This document shows, piece by piece, positions 2,011-20,237 of a DNA stretch of 41,145 nucleotides. Origin of the DNA: a virus; the UHGV virus genome UHGV-0210237, one strand, 5' to 3'. The notes beneath the pieces are model-generated. The model was not told where the DNA came from and did no database searches. It was given only the letters and a program-made list of their open reading frames with translations. The translations under genes were made by a program, and so were the position numbers. Position 1 is the stretch's first letter. Each line of letters starts with the position of its first letter.

Positions 2011-3249
2011 ATGGTTAAATATGAAAAATATGAAACAAAAAGTGGAAAAAAATTGTGGAGGTACTATGGATACTTTGGAACAGACCCTAAGACAGGTAAA
2101 AAAATTAAGCCTCGCGGGCAAGGATTTATATCAAAAGCAGAGGCCAAACTAGCTTATGAAAGAACTATAGAAGAGATAAAGGGCGGGAAGTTAAACACTA
2201 GAAAAAGAAAGCTTACATTCAGTGAATTAACAACTGAATTTCTTGAGTATTACAATGAATCAGGAATAAAACCGGGCACCTATAGAAAATTTAAAATTGA
2301 AACTGAAAGACATTTATTACCAATAATCGGTACCATATTTATAGATCAGTTAGATATAGATGACTGCCAGAAATGTTATGAAGCTGTGAAGAAAAATAGA
2401 AAAGATCACAGTAAAATAATAAATCAAGCCGAACGGATATTAGATTATGCTGTAAGCAAAAGATACTTGGACTCAAATCCCATGAAAAATATCCTTCGCT
2501 CGAGAAATAAATTACATTATAGTAAAAAGCGTCTAGATAGTAGCGAAAACTTCTACACTCCGACACAGCTTATGGATTTTTTAGAAGCCTTTAGAGAAGT
2601 TGAAGAATTTCACAAATTTGTCTATTTTCGACTTTTGGCATTTACAGGGCTAAGACGCGGAGAGGCTTTATCTTTATACGAGTCAGATATCTTGAAAGAT
2701 ATAAAAGCAGTAGATGTCTCTAAAACATTAGCTGAAGACGAAAATGGAAAAACATATGTTTCATCTTTCCCAAAGACCGAGGAATCAAAAAATCTAGTAT
2801 ATTTAGATGATGATACTTTCAATTTTGTCGAAGAACTAATAAAAAATAGATATCGGTATGACTCCTATGGGAAAATAGTCCCTTTAAAAAGAAGTAACTT
2901 CTTATTCCCTAGTCCAAAGACCGGTAAACATTACCACAGATCAGCTCCTAACGAGTGGTTAAGAACATTTTTTGATAGAAATGAAGAAGCTTTAAGCAAA
3001 AGAAATATTTCAAGGATATCGCCTCACGGATTCCGTCACTCTCAAGCTACCTTATTATATGAATTAGGTGTAGATCCGAAAGATGCCCAATCTAGACTTA
3101 GGCACAAAAATTTAAAAACAACTATGGACATTTATACTCACATCTCAGAAGCGCGCAAGCGTACTCCTTTGACTAAACTTGATGAATTTTCTTCTAGAGG
3201 GACAACATCAGGGACAACGTCAGACCAACACTCGCAAAACAAGTCTTAG
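2011..3249 (+). CDS. int: Tyrosine-type site-specific integrase.
   Basis: 412 aa. C-terminal catalytic motifs (HGFRHSQATLL … RLRHKNLKTTMDIYTHI). N-terminal arm-binding-like domain. SD AAAAGGAGG upstream. Confidence 0.9.
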   Translation: MVKYEKYETKSGKKLWRYYGYFGTDPKTGKKIKPRGQGFISKAEAKLAYERTIEEIKGGKLNTRKRKLTFSELTTEFLEYYNESGIKPGTYRKFKIETERHLLPIIGTIFIDQLDIDDCQKCYEAVKKNRKDHSKIINQAERILDYAVSKRYLDSNPMKNILRSRNKLHYSKKRLDSSENFYTPTQLMDFLEAFREVEEFHKFVYFRLLAFTGLRRGEALSLYESDILKDIKAVDVSKTLAEDENGKTYVSSFPKTEESKNLVYLDDDTFNFVEELIKNRYRYDSYGKIVPLKRSNFLFPSPKTGKHYHRSAPNEWLRTFFDRNEEALSKRNISRISPHGFRHSQATLLYELGVDPKDAQSRLRHKNLKTTMDIYTHISEARKRTPLTKLDEFSSRGTTSGTTSDQHSQNKS

Positions 3250-4684: not shown

Positions 4685-5623
4685 CCATGGAAGTTTATTC
4701 TTGTTCAATGCTATTTGCAATGCTTTTACCATATTAGAAGTCGGGCTAATGACGCCATCTTGCGTGGTACCCAAAGCTTTTTGCATTGCCTTAATTGTGT
4801 TCTTTCCGCACAATCCATCAACTGCGCCATTGTAGTAGCCTTTTGCTTTCAACCGTTTCTGCCATGTGCGAATCAGCGTGGATCCTTTAAGCGTGTTATC
4901 AAATTGTGCGGCATAAAGGTTCTTGTTGCACGCCTGCCGGTATTGGTGGCTGATTTCATCATCTGGTGTGATACCTTCGTACTGCATCGCTTTATTGGCA
5001 GTGCTTGGACCAAACATGCCGTCTTCTTGGATTTTATTGGTATTTGGTTTTACAGAAGGTGTACTAGGTTTAGCTGCTGAATTGGAACCGCTAGTCTTGC
5101 CAAACACTGCATCTTTGAATCGTTCAAGTTCACTAGGCTTAGCTACCCAAGGCGCCGGACAATTCTTGCTAGTAACATCATAATGGCGCCAAATCTTATC
5201 TCGAGTAATATTCGGATACTTAGCGATCAACTCTTTTACTGCTTTTACCGTATTTTGGAATGTCTTTTCAGTGATCTTCCCGTTTCTATCCAAACACATT
5301 TCTATTCCGATTGTTGAATAATTGGCATTGCCAATAATACTTCTTAATGGATAATACGGTTGCCCGTTAACATATTTTTGAATGTCATTTGCATGGTAAG
5401 CCACTTCATTCAATGGAATGATACAAATAGCTTCCTCATCATCCACAAACAAATGAGCAGAAGCATAAACACCATTCAGGTTGTTAAAGTAGCTTTTATG
5501 ATTTCGCGCGGTTCCTCCATTATTGGCAGTATAATGCATGATCAGTCCTTCGATCCTAGAATTTTTAATTCCTGGACGAGAAAACTTATTGATTCTGATA
5601 TATTCGTATTTGATGAAACTCAT
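4682..5623 (-). CDS. Endolysin: N-acetylmuramoyl-L-alanine amidase (Amidase_2/PGRP fold) with two C-terminal PG_binding_1 repeats.
   Basis: N-terminal amidase-2-like region (HYTANNGGTARNH … AHLFVDDEE … AYHAND). S/T/P-rich linker. Repeats GYYNGAVDGLCGKNTIKAMQKALG and QDGVISPTSNMVKALQIALNK. Last late gene, no signal peptide. Confidence 0.8.
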   Translation of the reverse strand: MSFIKYEYIRINKFSRPGIKNSRIEGLIMHYTANNGGTARNHKSYFNNLNGVYASAHLFVDDEEAICIIPLNEVAYHANDIQKYVNGQPYYPLRSIIGNANYSTIGIEMCLDRNGKITEKTFQNTVKAVKELIAKYPNITRDKIWRHYDVTSKNCPAPWVAKPSELERFKDAVFGKTSGSNSAAKPSTPSVKPNTNKIQEDGMFGPSTANKAMQYEGITPDDEISHQYRQACNKNLYAAQFDNTLKGSTLIRTWQKRLKAKGYYNGAVDGLCGKNTIKAMQKALGTTQDGVISPTSNMVKALQIALNKNKLPW

Positions 5624-15837: not shown

Positions 15838-16193
15838 TCAGGAGTTTACAAATCTCGGTACTTTTTCATCCTTGCCCAAGATTTTGTTTTCAAGTTTTTC
15901 CTTGTTAAAGAATTTTTCGAAGGTGTCAAATTTAGGAACCTCGTATTTACCACGTTTTTTTGTAGCTTTCACTTGTTGGTTCGCCCAAGCTTGGTAATGA
16001 ATGAGCTCTTGCTCGTCTAATCTTTTGAGACGATAAGCGATAAGCCTTGTTTCATATTCCGTCATTGTCATTCGATCAATGTCTAAAAAGTCATTAATCC
16101 CGAGATAACGCAGACAGTTTATCTGGACAGTGGCATAAAAATCTTCTTCTACTTGCTTTCCTTGATTCTGTTTTCGACTGTTAGTGTTTTTTT
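15838..16193 (-). CDS. G-T extension of the tail assembly chaperone, reached by a -1 frameshift from the upstream chaperone ORF.
   Basis: The 77-aa ORF frame stays open upstream to the A7 run and lies in the -1 frame relative to 16149..16496. This is the standard siphovirus arrangement. Confidence 0.5.
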
Positions 16194-16496
16194 CTTTGTA
16201 AATTCCGACTTTTTTAATTCTTCTAGTACCAAATCAAAGAGTTTATCCGAGCCGATTTCACCAACTAAGGCGATCAAATCCTTTTCCGCTACTCGTGGCG
16301 ACTCTGTTGCGTTTGCTACTTTTAACATTTCAATCAAAGTCTCAATATCTTCATTGAAGAAATTCACTAGCGTTGAATCCAAGCCAAGCTTCATTGTCAT
16401 TCCTTGCTCTACAACGGAATATCTGCGGTTCATTTCACGGATAAACCCAAATCCAAAAATAAAGCTATACTCTTTTTCGTTAATCGTTAGTTCCAT
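16149..16496 (-). CDS. Tail assembly chaperone (gpG-like).
   Basis: 115 aa between the major tail protein and the tape measure. Ends just after the slippery run AAGAAAAAAAC. Confidence 0.6.
   Translation of the reverse strand: MELTINEKEYSFIFGFGFIREMNRRYSVVEQGMTMKLGLDSTLVNFFNEDIETLIEMLKVANATESPRVAEKDLIALVGEIGSDKLFDLVLEELKKSEFTKKKTLTVENRIKESK
16187..16193 (-). other. Programmed -1 frameshift slippery site (A7 on the mRNA) for the G/G-T chaperone.
   Basis: T7 run on the plus strand at 16187..16193 lies inside the last codons of the G ORF. The downstream ORF is in the -1 frame. Confidence 0.5.
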
Positions 16497-16538
16497 TTAT
16501 TCATCCTCCTAAAAATAAAAGCACTCAATTAAGAGTGC

Positions 16539-17045
16539 TTAGCCTTCTGGTGTTTGTTTTGTTGTGTCCACAAATGCATACTGAACTTCGTTTTGTTGTT
16601 CGGCCGTTAAGGTTGCATAACCGTCCTGATGAATCATTTGTACGGCGTATTCCAATGAAACTTCAACATTATCTTCGGCAGAAGCGGTTTCTTCATAGCT
16701 TGAGATATACACTTGCATATATTTAGCTGCAAATTTCCCTGTATCGCCTTCTTGTGGTTCGAGTTTGTCAATGATCCATGTTTCCACCAATTTGTTGTTC
16801 ATAAATGCATCGTAAAGCATTTTTAGTGTTTTGCTGCCACGTTCATATAAAGCGGTAGAGCTGAAATCATATTCAACCGCCCCAACAGTTTGTGCAGTTC
16901 CATCTTTAGTTTCGGTAGAATCTGTACTGCGTGACATACCGAATGTATGCTCGGTTTGATAAGTAACAGTTTTGGCAGCTTCTTCAGCTTGCTTTTTCAA
17001 GTCCCGATAGACCAAAATGACGTCAATACCTTTTTTTAGTGCCAT
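16539..17045 (-). CDS. Major tail protein.
   Basis: 168 aa immediately upstream of the chaperone genes. Typical size, synteny and strong SD. Confidence 0.6.
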   Translation of the reverse strand: MALKKGIDVILVYRDLKKQAEEAAKTVTYQTEHTFGMSRSTDSTETKDGTAQTVGAVEYDFSSTALYERGSKTLKMLYDAFMNNKLVETWIIDKLEPQEGDTGKFAAKYMQVYISSYEETASAEDNVEVSLEYAVQMIHQDGYATLTAEQQNEVQYAFVDTTKQTPEG

Positions 17046-17783: not shown

Positions 17784-18093
17784 CAGAAGCCACCTCCTGG
17801 ACGATAATGCTATTTCTTAATGCCGGAGTTCTTGTGGTGATATCCTTATACGTTTTCCCTTCGTACAAAATGCGATCATACTCTGGAACAACAAAAAGAG
17901 GCATGGTTCTGATAACCTTTGCCCCTTGTCGTATATCTCCAAAAATAGCCATACTCCTATCTGTTCCAACATCCGTTACGTTAACGTTCGCTGTCGTCCG
18001 AATAGGCGCCGATTCTACCCACTCGCCCAAGTTTGGATCGTAATGGCTACCTAATCCATCTTTCTCGAAAGTAACTTCATCCAAAAATCTCAT
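17776..18093 (-). CDS. Head closure or head-tail adaptor protein.
   Basis: 105 aa. Synteny between the gp6-like and gp10-like genes. Confidence 0.45.
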   Translation of the reverse strand: MRFLDEVTFEKDGLGSHYDPNLGEWVESAPIRTTANVNVTDVGTDRSMAIFGDIRQGAKVIRTMPLFVVPEYDRILYEGKTYKDITTRTPALRNSIIVQEVASGG

Positions 18094-18419
18094 ACGAAGT
18101 AAAAACCCCCTTGCTTGGGCTTGTATAAGTCTTCATCGTCTTTTCGTTTAAAGGAATCAATCTCCGATCCATATTCGGAAAAATCCGAATCAGGGAATGC
18201 CATAGATAGTCCTTCTTGAGAGTATGAAGACATCCCTTCCTGTCCAACTCGGTTGAAACGTTTGTTGGTTACATCGAAAACAATGTACTCTAATGAATCT
18301 GGTATAACAGAAACGCCTAGCAATGACGCTAAGCGCTCTCTAGTTCGTTTCTCGATAACTTCTAGCTTATCATCTGTAGAACCGCTTAGAAGCTTCTTAA
18401 CGTCATCTTTAATTGCCAT
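18090..18419 (-). CDS. gp6-like head-tail connector protein.
   Basis: 109 aa directly after the capsid gene. Acidic C-terminus. Synteny. Confidence 0.5.
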   Translation of the reverse strand: MAIKDDVKKLLSGSTDDKLEVIEKRTRERLASLLGVSVIPDSLEYIVFDVTNKRFNRVGQEGMSSYSQEGLSMAFPDSDFSEYGSEIDSFKRKDDEDLYKPKQGGFYFV

Positions 18420-18434
18420 TCGTATCTATCCTTC

Positions 18435-18746
18435 CTACGGTTCAGTCAGAGTCAAAACGTGAGTATCCGTATGTGATCCATCTTCCGTTTTGATTGTTGT
18501 CGTGTACTCGCCAGCAGGTACAGTTTCAGTCCAAGTAATATTACCGCTAGAAGAAACCGCCAAACCAGTTGTTGCTGGCGCAATTGAATATGTCACTGTT
18601 TTATTTGTTGCGTTTTGTGGCGCAACAGTGGCTGTTAATTGTCTATTACCGGCAGTCCCCGCAACTGCACTTGAAGTTTTAGGCGATACTGTAACGCCTG
18701 TAACGGGGACTGTTACTCCCCCGCCGGTTGAATTTTCCCGAATGCT
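18435..18746 (-). CDS. Ig-like (Big_2-like) domain ORF with no start codon, in the -1 frame of the capsid gene 3' end. Putative frameshift extension of the major capsid protein.
   Basis: The frame is open from 18746 to the TAG at 18435. It encodes …GGGVTVPVTGVTVSPKTSSAVAGTAGNRQLTATVAPQNATNKTVTYSIA…GEYTTTIKTEDGSHTDTHVLTLTEP, which is Big_2-like. It overlaps the capsid gene's C-terminus, and the G-run GGCGGGGGAG lies at the capsid stop codon. Confidence 0.55.
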   Translation of the reverse strand, partial: SIRENSTGGGVTVPVTGVTVSPKTSSAVAGTAGNRQLTATVAPQNATNKTVTYSIAPATTGLAVSSSGNITWTETVPAGEYTTTIKTEDGSHTDTHVLTLTEP

Positions 18747-19639
18747 TCATCTTTAACGATCATGAAACCAACATCCATTGTCGCACGCAAAGCAACTAAT
18801 TCTTGCTCAAACAAGTTAACTGGCGTACCGTCTTCGTTGGTAAGAGTTGAAAGTTGAGCGTCTTCAGAGATTTTGAACGAGATGTTGTATGGGATTCCGT
18901 AGAACATGTAGTTAAAGTCACCTGCATACAGTTCACCTTTTGCCAAAGCTTTCAAATCGACTACTGGCAATCCATCAATAGTGTTGGTCGCGCGATCGTA
19001 AATGAATTCAACATTCGTGCCAACTGTTTGAGCTGCAGAGCGAAGTTCTGTACGATTTTTCCGGTTAGAGATAAATGCGTTCGGCTCAAATTCGTTTTCG
19101 CTGAGCGCATCTTCTAATGCCAAGATATTATCGTAAGTAAGAGGTCCGTTGATCACGTTATCAGCTGCAACAACAGATTCTTCCAAAGATTGTGGAAAAG
19201 GATTGTCTGTATTCAACAACGCAGCAGCATCAAATTTTTTGTAGAAAGCTTCTGCAATCTTAGGCTGCATAACAGTGAAAAAGTCTGACATTTTGTAGTG
19301 CAAGTATTCCCGAGAAACCGGAATAATAACACCGAGTTTTTTAGCGACCATAGTTGCTTGCAACCATTTAGGTTTAGATGTTTTGATCTTTTCACCTTCA
19401 CCAACCCAGTACGCACCAGGACCTTCAGCAAAGTATTCGAATTTCTTTTCTTTGTCCGTCATTTCTTCATACTTGGCCAACTGCATGATCTTAGAGTTTT
19501 CCATGACTTCATTAACAATAAGCGTGTTGTACTTGTCAGGGATCTTGCCTTCTTTTGTTTCGTAAACTGTCACATTATCTGGGTTCCAAGTCTGAGCAAA
19601 GTATTGCAAATTCATATTCATTAATCGTTTGTTTTTCAT
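18713..19639 (-). CDS. Major capsid protein.
   Basis: 308 aa after the scaffold gene. N-terminus MKNKRLMNMNLQYFA carries an L27/Prp-like cleavage motif. Confidence 0.8.
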   Translation of the reverse strand: MKNKRLMNMNLQYFAQTWNPDNVTVYETKEGKIPDKYNTLIVNEVMENSKIMQLAKYEEMTDKEKKFEYFAEGPGAYWVGEGEKIKTSKPKWLQATMVAKKLGVIIPVSREYLHYKMSDFFTVMQPKIAEAFYKKFDAAALLNTDNPFPQSLEESVVAADNVINGPLTYDNILALEDALSENEFEPNAFISNRKNRTELRSAAQTVGTNVEFIYDRATNTIDGLPVVDLKALAKGELYAGDFNYMFYGIPYNISFKISEDAQLSTLTNEDGTPVNLFEQELVALRATMDVGFMIVKDEAFGKIQPAGE

Positions 19640-19652
19640 TTAGTATTTCCTC

Positions 19653-20237
19653 CTATTTAATGATTCTGTTTTTAGCAGCCATTTCAGCCACAGTTTGTTT
19701 AGTGTTCTTATCAGCAGAAAACTGTCCGCCTTCCCCCGGCGTAGATTGACGAGCATTTTCTTTTTTGATCTGAGATGCAAAATTAGTAATAACTGCAACA
19801 GCCTTTTTAGTAGCTTCTGCATCTTCTGAGACAATCAATCCGAGTAGTTCATCATCTTGTGGCAATCCTGCGCTTGAGAGCATTTTAGAAGCTTCTGACT
19901 TCATTTCGTTTAAAGTCTGTCCACGTTTCAGTTCAGCGATTTCGGCTTCTTTTTGCTCCAATTCATGTTGCAGTTTTTCTTCCGCATTCATTTTTGCGAG
20001 CTTCTTAGCTTCTTCTTTTTTTGCTTCTGCTTCTTGTTCCCAACTTGCACGAGCCTTTTTAGTTTCAGCAGCAACAATTTTCGCTAATTCGTCACGAGAA
20101 AATGTTTTGCCAGTTTCTTCCTTTTTTGTTTCATCTGTGGTGGTTTCAGTTGTTTCAGTCGACGTCGTTTCTTGAGAACCGCCATCTTGTTCAGCAAAAA
20201 ATTGAAGTTTCATAGGCATTAATAAACGTTTTTTCAT
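19653..20237 (-). CDS. Scaffolding protein.
   Basis: 194 aa, highly charged alpha-helical (EAEAKKEEAKKLAKMNAEEKLQHELEQKEAEIAELK), immediately upstream of the capsid gene. N-terminal MKLQFFA motif. Confidence 0.7.
   Translation of the reverse strand: MKKRLLMPMKLQFFAEQDGGSQETTSTETTETTTDETKKEETGKTFSRDELAKIVAAETKKARASWEQEAEAKKEEAKKLAKMNAEEKLQHELEQKEAEIAELKRGQTLNEMKSEASKMLSSAGLPQDDELLGLIVSEDAEATKKAVAVITNFASQIKKENARQSTPGEGGQFSADKNTKQTVAEMAAKNRIIK

What the first reader, a model, noticed from the sequence alone, without database searches (positions are those of the whole stretch)
18435..18746. Start-less Ig-like (Big_2-like) ORF in the -1 frame at the 3' end of the major capsid gene
Directly downstream of the capsid stop codon (18713), and overlapping its last 11 codons, is a 104-codon open frame with no ATG/GTG/TTG. 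Its translation looks like a bacterial Ig-like domain: VTVPVTGVTVSPKTSSAVAGTAGNRQLTATVAPQNATNKTVTYSIA…VPAGEYTTTIKTEDGSHTDTHVLTLTEP. It lies in the -1 frame relative to the capsid gene. On the mRNA the overlap contains GGCGGGGGAG-UAA, a run in which a Gly-tRNA can re-pair after slipping back one nucleotide, adjacent to the stop. This matches the known pattern of Ig-like C-terminal extensions made by programmed frameshifting on capsid or tail genes in Firmicutes siphoviruses. Nothing in a plain ORF call would reveal it.
Basis: partly seen in the sequence, partly recalled or inferred. Interest (0 to 1): 0.65.

Follow-up and report, generated by a model that had tools for sequence, protein, structure and literature searches.

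The report
Frameshift-added Ig domain on phage capsid
An Enterococcus-type phage very probably makes a second, longer form of its major capsid protein by letting ribosomes slip back one base just before the stop codon, which adds an antibody-like surface domain; the trick is known from other phages, but public records here annotate the extension as a separate small gene or leave it out.

Summary
On the minus strand a 103-codon frame (18746 to 18438, stop 18435-18437) overlaps the last 34 nt of an HK97-type capsid gene (18713-19639) in the -1 frame. One correction: the frame does contain a GTG, at codon 51, inside the domain.

The extension is a Big_2/He_PIG Ig-like domain (Pfam; AlphaFold pLDDT 95.6; Foldseek matches to Big_2 and to the phi29, T5 and lambda Ig domains).

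More than 30 related viral contigs keep the arrangement. The start-less half is under purifying selection (pN/pS 0.16-0.36). In-frame stops in relatives confine the shift to 16 nt containing G_GGG_GAG_UAA. The same junction and domain sit on three unrelated capsid families. One contig has an extra G, giving an in-frame 461-aa fusion. A sister lineage carries the proven phage A2 frameshift site instead.

A downstream C-run/G-run stem is present in 17/17 frameshift-dependent copies of the domain and 0/8 in-frame copies.

Best explanation: -1 ribosomal frameshifting makes a 44.2 kDa capsid-Ig species beside the 34.9 kDa capsid protein. No expression data were available. This is a new member of a known kind.

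The parts
18713..19639 (-). Major capsid protein gene (0 frame), 308 codons + TAA, HK97 fold family
   Evidence: ORF list. Pfam PF05065 E=1.4e-35. 88% identical to the Enterococcus phage vB_ElaS_B1578 capsid and 38% to Listeria A118 Cps.
18716..18722 (-). Proposed -1 slip site G_GGG_GAG (0-frame codons gcG GGG GAG). The P-site tRNA-Gly re-pairs perfectly on GGG. The A-site tRNA-Glu re-pairs on GGA with one G:U.
   Evidence: Sequence. G_GGG_RAG is invariant in all copies of this cassette. It aligns with G_GGA_AAC_TAA of the homologous A118 cps gene. GGGGGAA is described as a -1 motif in PMC10885494.
18713..18715 (-). 0-frame stop codon TAA, directly after the slip site. In the -1 frame it is read through as G-TA A-CA (Val-Thr).
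   Evidence: In one related contig (loci L042/L096) TAA is CAA and the 0 frame ends 5 codons later, with the -1 extension unchanged.
18713..18728 (-). Comparative frameshift window. In one group of relatives the -1 frame is closed by TGA at the position of 18731-18729, so the shift must occur within these 16 nt.
   Evidence: Junction groups with 'overlap nt 16'.
18435..18716 (-). Extension read after the shift: 93 codons (VTVPVTGVTVSPK...LTLTEP) + TAG at 18437-18435. A single Ig-like Big_2/He_PIG domain.
   Evidence: AlphaFold pLDDT 95.6, nine beta strands. Foldseek: Big_2 7quz TM 0.81, phi29 gp8, T5 pb6, lambda gpV. pN/pS 0.12-0.40 in this frame.
18653..18712 (-). Predicted stem-loop starting right after the stop. 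Arm 1 is 18712-18703 (CAGUCCCCGU) and arm 2 is 18662-18653 (GCGGGGACUG). It encloses a small hairpin (18699-18695 / 18685-18681). Candidate frameshift stimulator.
   Evidence: RNAfold -25.6 kcal/mol, z -2.95. The 7-bp core is invariant in 10 diverged copies. The C-run and second G-run are present in 17/17 frameshift-dependent and 0/8 in-frame copies of the domain. Probability of both runs under the window's codon usage is 2e-4.
18594..18596 (-). First canonical start codon (GTG) in the extension frame, at codon 51. It would give a 53-aa fragment lacking half of the Ig fold.
   Evidence: ORF 18435..18596. Some public records annotate 52-56-aa 'hypothetical proteins' from this GTG.
18090..18419 (-). 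Next gene, the head-tail connector (gp6-like). Its ATG is 15 nt after the extension's stop codon.
   Evidence: PF05135, E=2e-9.

Best explanation
A fraction of ribosomes translating the capsid mRNA slip back one nucleotide on G_GGG_GAG (18722-18716), directly before the TAA stop. They then continue in the -1 frame for 93 codons. The result is a 401-aa (about 44.2 kDa) capsid protein with a C-terminal Big_2-type Ig-like domain, made alongside the normal 308-aa (34.9 kDa) protein. A GC-rich stem-loop that starts just after the stop (C-run 18708-18705 pairing with G-run 18660-18657) probably pauses the ribosome and promotes the slip. Both forms would be built into the capsid, with the Ig domain on the outside, as in Lactobacillus phage A2, T3 and phi29.

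Shown here: the anatomy; the fold of the extension; its conservation and coding constraint; confinement of the shift to a 16-nt window; the travel of the site with the domain; and the exclusive association of the stem with frameshift-dependent copies.

Inferred: that the shift occurs at all; its exact codon (junction ...PAG-G-VTV or ...PAG-E-VTV); its efficiency; and the role of the domain (surface adhesion to carbohydrate or mucus is the usual proposal for such domains, from my general knowledge, and was not tested).
For: 1. Ig-like domain: Pfam He_PIG 24.8 bits (GA 24) and Big_2 20.7. AlphaFold pLDDT 95.6. Foldseek finds Big_2 at TM 0.81 and the Ig domains of phi29 capsid gp8, T5 pb6 and lambda gpV.

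2. No initiation signal: no ATG/GTG/TTG in the first 50 codons. No start or near-cognate codon 3-14 nt after the SD-like GGGGGAG in the window's version. No promoter or terminator between the two frames.

3. Conservation: 34 IMG/VR contigs carry an extension at least 89% identical, always in the -1 frame. The overlap is as short as 16 nt.

4. Coding constraint in the start-less half: pN/pS is 0.16-0.36 in this frame against 0.76-3.4 in the other two. 12 of 21 variable sites fall at third codon positions.

5. The same GCGGGGGAGTAA / GTGGGGGAGTAG junction plus the same domain lies on three capsid proteins with no detectable similarity: PF05065, Phage_cap_E, and the capsid of phage EG-TP1.

6. 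L045 has G6 instead of G5 and encodes capsid and Ig domain as one 461-aa ORF joined ...DVGGVVIP..., exactly the -1 product.

7. Many capsid homologues (61-70% identical) of about 398 aa carry an Ig-like domain in frame at the same C-terminal position.

8. Capsids 88% identical to the window's end in tCC CCA AAA GCG TAA CGC CTG with another Ig-like -1 extension. This 20-nt string is identical to the 3' end of the phage A2 head gene, whose -1 frameshift is experimentally established (PMC5009743).

9. The homologous A118 cps gene, also known to frameshift -1 (PMC5009743), has G_GGA_AAC_TAA at the aligned position.

10. GGGGGAA is the 'fivetwo' -1 motif of about a thousand annotated tail-chaperone frameshifts, with the G:U re-pairing rationale given (PMC10885494). 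The same CGGGGGAGTAA..CCCCG cassette ends tail tube genes and 119-127-aa ORFs with a 118-aa -1 continuation that look like tail assembly chaperones by size only.

11. Stem-loop.
Against: - No protein, ribosome-profiling or reporter data exist for this phage.
- G_GGG_GAG is not a canonical X_XXY_YYZ heptamer; the A-site tRNA would re-pair with a G:U in the middle position.
- In E. coli reporters, the above-background signal from G_GG.G was attributed to SD-like initiation on a nearby -1-frame AUA, not to frameshifting (PMC4066793).
- The stem base starts only 3 nt after the heptamer (the GC core starts 7 nt after).
- The fold energy is only in the 6% tail against synonymous recodings of the same peptide. 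Within the close family the stem is invariant, so it shows no covariation.
- NCBI's pipeline annotates the homologous frame as a separate 'putative Ig domain-containing protein' starting at ATT or ATC. Some relatives do have ATC 5 nt, or GTG 11 nt, after GGAG.
Confidence: 0.8

Rival explanations
1. The extension is a separate small gene. Ribosomes initiate (or re-initiate after terminating at TAA) on a non-canonical start, guided by the SD-like GGGGGAG, or start at the upstream ATT (18744-18742). The product is a free Ig-domain protein of about 10 kDa that decorates the capsid non-covalently.
For: GGGGGAG resembles a Shine-Dalgarno sequence. PMC4066793 attributes G_GG.G reporter signal in E. 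coli to such initiation. PGAP annotates 102-aa (ATT/ATC start, MRENPTGGGVT...) and 91-aa (ATC start, MPVIGVT...) proteins. EG-TP1 has GTG 11 nt after GGAG and is annotated that way. 13 of 32 unique cassettes have a near-cognate codon 3-14 nt downstream.
Against: The window has GTC, not ATC, at that codon. It has no canonical or near-cognate start for 41 codons after the SD-like run. 12 of 32 cassettes have none at all. The position varies as an ordinary I/V or V/A residue (GTC/ATC, GTT/GCT/GTG). The upstream ATT has no SD, and in one group of relatives it lies outside the open frame. The G6 contig and the many in-frame homologues show that the domain is meant to be joined to the capsid C-terminus. 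The sister lineage uses the A2 heptamer, which has no SD character.
Confidence: 0.08
2. The reading frames are joined at the nucleic-acid level. The G5 tract gains a G, either by slipped-strand mispairing in a subpopulation of genomes (phase variation) or by RNA polymerase slippage, and ordinary translation then makes the fusion.
For: L045 differs from its sisters L046/L047 by G6 versus G5 and is in frame.
Against: Five (or four, in the GTGGGGAAG variant) Gs is far below the homopolymer lengths known to give productive transcriptional slippage (about 9 A/T; my general knowledge, and PMC5009743 treats slippage on long runs). All of the roughly 34 contigs of the window's family have the out-of-frame tract length. 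The conserved downstream stem and the adjacency to the stop are not needed under this model.
Confidence: 0.06
3. The extension is not expressed. It is a decaying remnant of a former in-frame fusion or of a former separate gene.
For: No expression data. Some close relatives lack any extension (class C). IME197 has only a 20-residue -1 tail after the same junction.
Against: There is strong purifying selection, with no stops or indels in about 34 contigs and in copies only 67% identical. Rare codons forming the stem are retained.
Confidence: 0.02

Closest known systems
Lactobacillus phage A2 major head protein gp5A/gp5B (-1 frameshift; experimentally established, per review PMC5009743)
   Same: HK97-type siphovirus capsid gene. 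A -1 shift one or two codons before the stop. An extension of about 90 aa that is a Big_2 Ig-like domain (A2 extension: Big_2 30.6 bits). The next gene is a head-tail adaptor. Capsids 88% identical to the window's carry the A2 site itself, identical over 20 nt (CCCCAAAAGCGTAACGCCTG).
   Different: The window has G_GGG_GAG_UAA instead of C_CCA_AAA_GCG_UAA. Its Ig domain is of a different sequence family (He_PIG/Big_2, closest to tail-associated Ig proteins of Enterococcus phages). It also has a different predicted stem-loop.
Listeria phage A118 / A500 Cps (-1 frameshift in the coat protein gene, per PMC5009743)
   Same: A118 Cps is a true homologue of the window's capsid protein (38% identity, E=8e-66). 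Its gene ends gcG GGA AAC TAA, a heptamer abutting the stop at the position aligned with the window's gcG GGG GAG TAA.
   Different: The A118 heptamer is canonical. From my reading of the sequence and the annotation, its -1 frame appears to run into ORF7, annotated as a HeH/LEM domain protein, not an Ig-like domain.
GGGGGAA 'fivetwo' -1 slippery motif of actinobacteriophage tail assembly chaperone genes (PRFect paper, PMC10885494)
   Same: Five Gs followed by a Glu codon. The same proposed re-pairing of tRNA-Glu on GGA through a G:U pair.
   Different: Those sites are in tail chaperone genes of high-GC hosts and end in GAA. Here the site is GAG (or AAG), in a capsid gene of a 38%-GC phage, directly followed by the stop.
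Phage T3 capsid protein 10A/10B and phi29 gp8
   Same: T3 adds an Ig-like extension to a minority of capsid subunits by a -1 shift (PMC5009743). The phi29 gp8 C-terminal Ig domain is among the closest structural matches to the modelled extension (TM 0.74-0.79).
   Different: T3 is a podovirus of Gram-negative hosts with an unrelated site. In phi29 the domain is in frame and present on every subunit.
Enterococcus phage phiEf11 ORF10 (proposed -1 shift at A_AAA_AAA_TAG; PMC5221750)
   Same: An Enterococcus siphovirus capsid gene in which the authors saw two capsid bands (38-39 and 41-43 kDa) and proposed a -1 shift with a downstream stem-loop. The GCCCCG...CGGGGC stem is the same kind as in the G-run cassettes.
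   Different: The slip site differs. The extension is only 21 residues and is not an Ig domain. The authors found no extension peptides and called the idea speculative.

Membership tests
Ig-like C-terminal extension of a phage major capsid protein made by -1 programmed ribosomal frameshifting (A2 gp5B type) | The upstream gene is the major capsid protein | tested here: met
   PF05065 E=1.4e-35. Flanked by a DUF4355 scaffold gene and a gp6-like connector gene. Homologous to annotated capsids.
Ig-like C-terminal extension of a phage major capsid protein made by -1 programmed ribosomal frameshifting (A2 gp5B type) | An ORF of about 90-100 codons in the -1 frame overlaps the 3' end of the capsid gene and has no initiation signal of its own | tested here: met
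   34-nt overlap, -1 frame, first canonical start at codon 51. No near-cognate start after the SD-like run in the window.
Ig-like C-terminal extension of a phage major capsid protein made by -1 programmed ribosomal frameshifting (A2 gp5B type) | The extension folds as an Ig-like domain | tested here: met
   He_PIG above the gathering score, Big_2 just below it. pLDDT 95.6. Foldseek matches to Big_2 and phage Ig domains.
Ig-like C-terminal extension of a phage major capsid protein made by -1 programmed ribosomal frameshifting (A2 gp5B type) | A slippery sequence within the overlap allows tRNA re-pairing in the -1 frame | tested here: inconclusive
   G_GGG gives perfect P-site re-pairing. The A-site codon GAG to GGA needs a G:U pair, so the site is not a canonical X_XXY_YYZ heptamer. 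The site is conserved, lies inside the 16-nt comparative window, and resembles the annotated GGGGGAA motif. Shiftiness was not measured, and E. coli data on G_GG.G are ambiguous.
Ig-like C-terminal extension of a phage major capsid protein made by -1 programmed ribosomal frameshifting (A2 gp5B type) | A downstream stimulatory RNA structure | tested here: met
   A stem is predicted. It is specific to frameshift-dependent copies, 17/17 against 0/8, and is built from rare codons (P=2e-4). Caveats: only the 6% tail against synonymous recoding, and no covariation within the close family.
Ig-like C-terminal extension of a phage major capsid protein made by -1 programmed ribosomal frameshifting (A2 gp5B type) | The extension frame is conserved and under purifying selection in relatives | tested here: met
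Ig-like C-terminal extension of a phage major capsid protein made by -1 programmed ribosomal frameshifting (A2 gp5B type) | Two capsid protein species (short and long) sharing an N-terminus occur in virions, with a trans-frame junction peptide | not testable with these tools
   Needs SDS-PAGE and MS of virions. Predicted masses are 34.9 and 44.2 kDa.
Free-standing Ig-domain decoration protein gene (as annotated by PGAP and in the EG-TP1 record) | Own start codon at a suitable distance from a ribosome-binding site | tested here: not met
   The window has no canonical or near-cognate start within 41 codons after GGGGGAG. The upstream ATT lacks an SD. Annotated starts in relatives fall on ordinary variable I/V codons.

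The most novel reading that the evidence does not exclude
The recoding signal is itself part of a mobile module. A cassette made of G_GGG_GAG, the stop codon, and a C-run/G-run stem-loop moves together with its payload between unrelated structural genes of Firmicutes phages. The recipients include at least three capsid families, tail tube proteins, and ORFs that by size alone look like tail chaperones. The payload is either an Ig-like domain or a conserved 21-23-residue peptide (GGVxxPxxxxVxPTTxGAxIxL). An insertion would then bring its own means of partial expression, rather than acquiring a frameshift site later by selection, as the published view proposes (PMC5009743). The mini-extension would be a new, widespread C-terminal tag of capsid and tail tube proteins with unknown function.
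Probability: 0.45. Interest if true: 0.6.

Novelty: new member of a known kind. Interest (0 to 1): 0.45.

Why it matters
Practical value. The capsid of this phage group probably has two forms, one displaying an Ig-like domain. That matters for annotation: public records call the extension a separate gene with an ATT/ATC/GTG start, a 53-aa fragment, or nothing. It also matters for proteomics and cryo-EM of Enterococcus phages, and for any use of the capsid C-terminus for display.

Conceptual value. The comparative set gives an unusually clean natural experiment. The same domain occurs in frame without the stem and out of frame always with it. The same capsid carries either the A2 site or the G-run site. 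This suggests that slip site, stop and stem-loop are inherited as one unit with the domain.

It also adds a low-GC, capsid-gene example to the G5-Glu class of -1 sites, which has so far been annotated mostly in actinobacteriophage tail chaperone genes.

Tried and rejected
- Megablast of the capsid region against annotated phages: no match. Only protein-level searches found relatives.
- The scan of one-genome-per-species contigs with the extension gave only distant Ig domains inside large proteins, which were uninformative for the junction.
- blastn of a short-extension cassette against annotated phages: no match.
- Rfam: nothing meaningful in 18300-19000.
- Full-text search for GGGGGAGTAA/GGGGAAGTAA as a frameshift site returned only unrelated primer sequences.
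- The original A2 paper and the Listeria phage comparative paper are not in the held library. Claims about them rest on the 2016 review and on the sequences themselves.
- I first considered the upstream G-run pairing with the C-run (CGGGG...CCCCG). I rejected it as a stimulator because the ribosome occupies the G-run at the moment of the shift. The C-run's partner is the downstream G-run.
- I considered GGGAAAA (18737-18731) as a slip site. I rejected it because it is in the wrong register for the 0 frame and lies outside the 16-nt comparative window.
- Fold energy as stand-alone evidence is weak: z -2.95 against shuffles, but only the 6% tail against synonymous recodings.
- A fixed-column covariation count across the short-extension cassettes was abandoned, because the stem register shifts by one base between codon contexts.

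Full report
**What is in the sequence**

The structural genes of this window lie on the minus strand. In order they are:
- a DUF4355 scaffold gene (19653-20237);
- an HK97-family major capsid gene (18713-19639; 308 codons; Pfam PF05065, E=1.4e-35);
- a gp6-like head-tail connector gene (18090-18419).

The capsid gene ends caa ccg gcg ggg gag TAA. The frame that starts one base earlier (-1) is open from 18746 to 18438 and stops at TAG 18437-18435. That is 103 codons, which overlap the capsid gene by 34 nt and end 15 nt before the connector's ATG.

One detail needs correcting: the frame does contain a GTG, at 18596-18594 (codon 51). It lies in the middle of the domain, and the first 50 codons have no ATG, GTG or TTG. 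No promoter-like or terminator-like site separates the two frames.

**The extension is an Ig-like domain**

- It scores above the gathering threshold of Pfam He_PIG (24.8 vs 24 bits) and just below that of Big_2 (20.7 vs 22.8).
- With an alignment of 30 database homologues, AlphaFold2 gives a nine-strand all-beta model with mean pLDDT 95.6.
- Foldseek against the PDB finds a Big_2 domain (7quz, TM 0.81, 39-41% identity). It also finds the Ig-like domains of the phi29 capsid protein gp8, the T5 tail tube protein pb6, lambda gpV and a mycobacteriophage capsid.

**Relatives**

The window has no close relative among annotated phages at the DNA level. Protein-level relatives are Enterococcus phages, and database names for near-identical extensions come from Enterococcus gallinarum and E. 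faecium.

IMG/VR holds 34 contigs with an extension at least 89% identical, and many more with the capsid. Among capsids at least 88% identical to the window's, there are three states:

- Class A (the window's). The junction is CCG GCG GGG GAG TAA or CCA GTG GGG AAG TAA, followed by this Ig domain in the -1 frame. The first canonical start is at codon 44-52.
- Class B (e.g. Enterococcus phage vB_ElaS_B1578). The junction is tCC CCA AAA GCG TAA CGC CTG, followed by a different extension of similar size in the -1 frame, often also start-less. It looks Ig-like by composition but has no Pfam hit.
- Class C. No extension; the connector gene follows directly.

The class B string is identical over 20 nt to the 3' end of the Lactobacillus phage A2 head gene. 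The A2 -1 frame encodes a Big_2 domain, and its -1 frameshift is experimentally established according to the 2016 review (PMC5009743). So the window's own capsid lineage demonstrably uses a proven -1 cassette at this very position, and the window carries an alternative cassette.

**Where the shift must occur**

In one group of class A contigs the -1 frame is closed by TGA 16 nt before the capsid stop (aat TGA acc ggc ggg gga gta). Entry into the extension frame must therefore happen within ccg gcg ggg gag taa, which is 18728-18713 in the window.

The element common to all variants is G_GGG followed by GAG or AAG and then the stop. In one contig TAA has become CAA and the 0 frame runs five more codons, with the extension unchanged.

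Listeria phage A118 Cps is a true homologue of the window's capsid protein (38% identity, E=8e-66), and A118 is reported to frameshift -1 in its coat gene (PMC5009743). Its gene ends gcG GGA AAC TAA, a canonical heptamer abutting the stop at the aligned position.

G_GGG_GAG differs from a canonical heptamer only in that tRNA-Glu must re-pair on GGA with a G:U pair. The PRFect paper describes exactly this for GGGGGAA, its 'fivetwo' motif, found in about a thousand annotated tail-chaperone frameshifts (PMC10885494).

**The frame is translated**

Between the window and copies 67-92% identical, the first 42 codons after the shift (upstream of any start codon) show the following:
- pN/pS of 0.16-0.40 in the extension frame, against 0.76-3.4 in the other two frames;
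- 12 of 21 variable sites at third codon positions.

**The domain belongs on the capsid C-terminus**

- The same junction and the same domain (67-80% identical) follow capsid genes with no detectable similarity to the window's. One is a Phage_cap_E protein (loci L045-L047). The other is the capsid of Enterococcus phage EG-TP1. Homology between the loci begins at the G-run itself.
- L045 differs from its sisters by one extra G (G6) and encodes capsid plus Ig domain as a single 461-aa ORF joined ...DVGGVVIP..., which is what a -1 slip on the G-run would make.
- A database search with the predicted fusion found many capsid homologues of about 398 aa (61-70% identical) with an Ig-like domain (PF18316) in frame at the same position.

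**A downstream RNA element**

Right after the stop, CAGUCCCCGU (18712-18703) can pair with GCGGGGACUG (18662-18653) around a small inner hairpin. The predicted energy is -25.6 kcal/mol, z = -2.95 against dinucleotide shuffles.

Energy alone is weak evidence. 6% of synonymous recodings of the same peptide fold as well, and within class A the stem is invariant, so it shows no covariation.

The comparative pattern is stronger. All 17 unique frameshift-dependent copies of this domain have both the C-run (a rare CCC Pro codon, 5.7% of Pro codons here) and the second G-run (GCG GGG). None of 8 unique in-frame copies has either, although they encode the same P...AGTAG residues. These in-frame copies are tail-associated proteins with their own ATG, and some are closer to the window (82%) than the frameshift-dependent L046 copy is (67%). 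Under the window's codon usage, the chance of both runs arising is 2e-4.

The GC core of the stem begins 7 nt after the heptamer. From my general knowledge of ribosome geometry, that is about where the mRNA entrance lies when GGG is in the P site.

**The cassette is more general**

An exact-pattern scan of IMG/VR for CGGGGGAGTAA-N3-5-CCCCG gave 79 unique contexts. In about 47 of them the TAA is the in-frame stop of an ORF of at least 100 codons. Those upstream ORFs include:
- several capsid families (PF05065, Gp13-like, Phage_capsid_4);
- tail tube proteins (PF04630);
- 119-127-aa ORFs with a 118-aa -1 continuation, which by size alone look like tail assembly chaperone pairs; they were not profile-tested.

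The -1 payloads are this Ig domain, another domain of about 95 aa, or a conserved 23-residue peptide (GGVxxPxxxxVxPTTxGAxIxL).

Only 3 of 32 unique cassettes have a canonical start 3-14 nt after GGAG, and 12 (including the window's) have not even a near-cognate one. Most also have the C-run/G-run stem with a 28-42-nt loop, and the flanking pairs change in step between contexts: UCAGCCCCG/CGGGGCUGA, UAGCCCC/GGGGCUA, UCCCCC/GGGGGA.

The phiEf11 capsid gene has the same short extension and stem behind a different slip site (A_AAA_AAA_TAG). Its authors saw two capsid bands and proposed a -1 shift, but found no extension peptides (PMC5221750). The phiEf11 tail tube protein carries the short motif in frame and lacks the C-run.

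**Rivals**

Independent initiation is the main rival. GGGGGAG looks like a Shine-Dalgarno sequence. E. coli reporter signal from G_GG.G has been attributed to such initiation (PMC4066793). PGAP annotates the frame as a separate protein starting at ATT or ATC, and EG-TP1 has a GTG there.

This rival does not fit the window. The corresponding codon is GTC, and no possible start follows for 41 codons. The candidate start positions vary like ordinary I/V or V/A residues. The model also does not explain the in-frame fusions, the G6 contig, or the A2-type sister cassette.

Slippage at the DNA or RNA level on only 4-5 Gs, and non-expression, are both unlikely.

**Verdict**

I put the probability of -1 ribosomal frameshifting at or next to G_GGG_GAG at about 0.8. 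It would yield a 401-aa (44.2 kDa) capsid-Ig fusion beside the 308-aa (34.9 kDa) capsid protein.

This is a new member of a known kind (A2, T3 and A118-type capsid extensions). It has a less common G5-Glu slip site, and there is good comparative evidence that site, stop and stem travel with the domain. Nothing has been shown at the protein level.

Noticed in passing
window 16187-16194 (-), genes 16149-16496 (-) and 15838-16071 (-): The usual tail assembly chaperone arrangement. A TAC gene (PF12363) contains aaG AAA AAA Aca, and the next ORF (15838-16071) lies in its -1 frame with the frame open across the junction. This is a likely G/GT-type -1 frameshift on the A-run.
   Followed up: partly
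L003 (IME197) capsid 3' end; L245 (phiEf11) 3121-3190 and 5150-5215; L150, L164, L165, L192, L193 and others: A conserved 21-23-residue peptide (GGVxxPxxxxVxPTTxGAxIxL, then stop) is reachable only by a -1 shift at the ends of capsid and tail tube genes in many Firmicutes phage contigs. The same motif is in frame at the C-terminus of the phiEf11 tail tube protein. Function unknown.
   Followed up: partly
L001 (Enterococcus phage vB_ElaS_B1578) 3405-3705, and about 39 fetched IMG/VR loci (some contigs fetched twice): The ORF after the capsid gene is annotated as a separate hypothetical protein starting at GTG. However, it lies in the -1 frame behind C_CCA_AAA_GCG_TAA, identical over 20 nt to the phage A2 frameshift site, and several relatives lack that GTG. 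It is probably an unannotated A2-type capsid frameshift.
   Followed up: yes
L045 2495-2510 versus L046/L047: A G6 versus G5 difference puts a Phage_cap_E capsid and the Ig domain in one 461-aa ORF in one contig only. It could be a natural in-frame variant or a homopolymer assembly error.
   Followed up: partly
L060 about 2438-2758: A 397-aa upstream ORF ends ...ttt CCC TAG, with an Ig-like ORF (40% identical to the window's) in the +1 frame. This resembles the CCC_stop +1 sites of Listeria phage tail genes (PMC5009743).
   Followed up: no
PQ554527.1 (hit H42): A record named Acinetobacter phage D2SVT (host A. baumannii) has a capsid with the same 87.9% identity and score to the window as Enterococcus phage vB_ElaS_B1578. 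The host label looks doubtful.
   Followed up: no
proteins P0121-P0123, P0190, P0193: Public annotation of the homologous frame is inconsistent: 102-aa and 91-aa 'putative Ig domain-containing proteins' with ATT/ATC read as Met, 52-56-aa 'hypothetical proteins' from the internal GTG, or no gene at all.
   Followed up: yes
window 16515-16545 (-): A hairpin (gcactc ttaatt gagtgc) followed by a T-run lies directly after the tail tube gene (16539-17045, PF06199). It looks like an intrinsic terminator or attenuator between the tail tube and chaperone genes.
   Followed up: no
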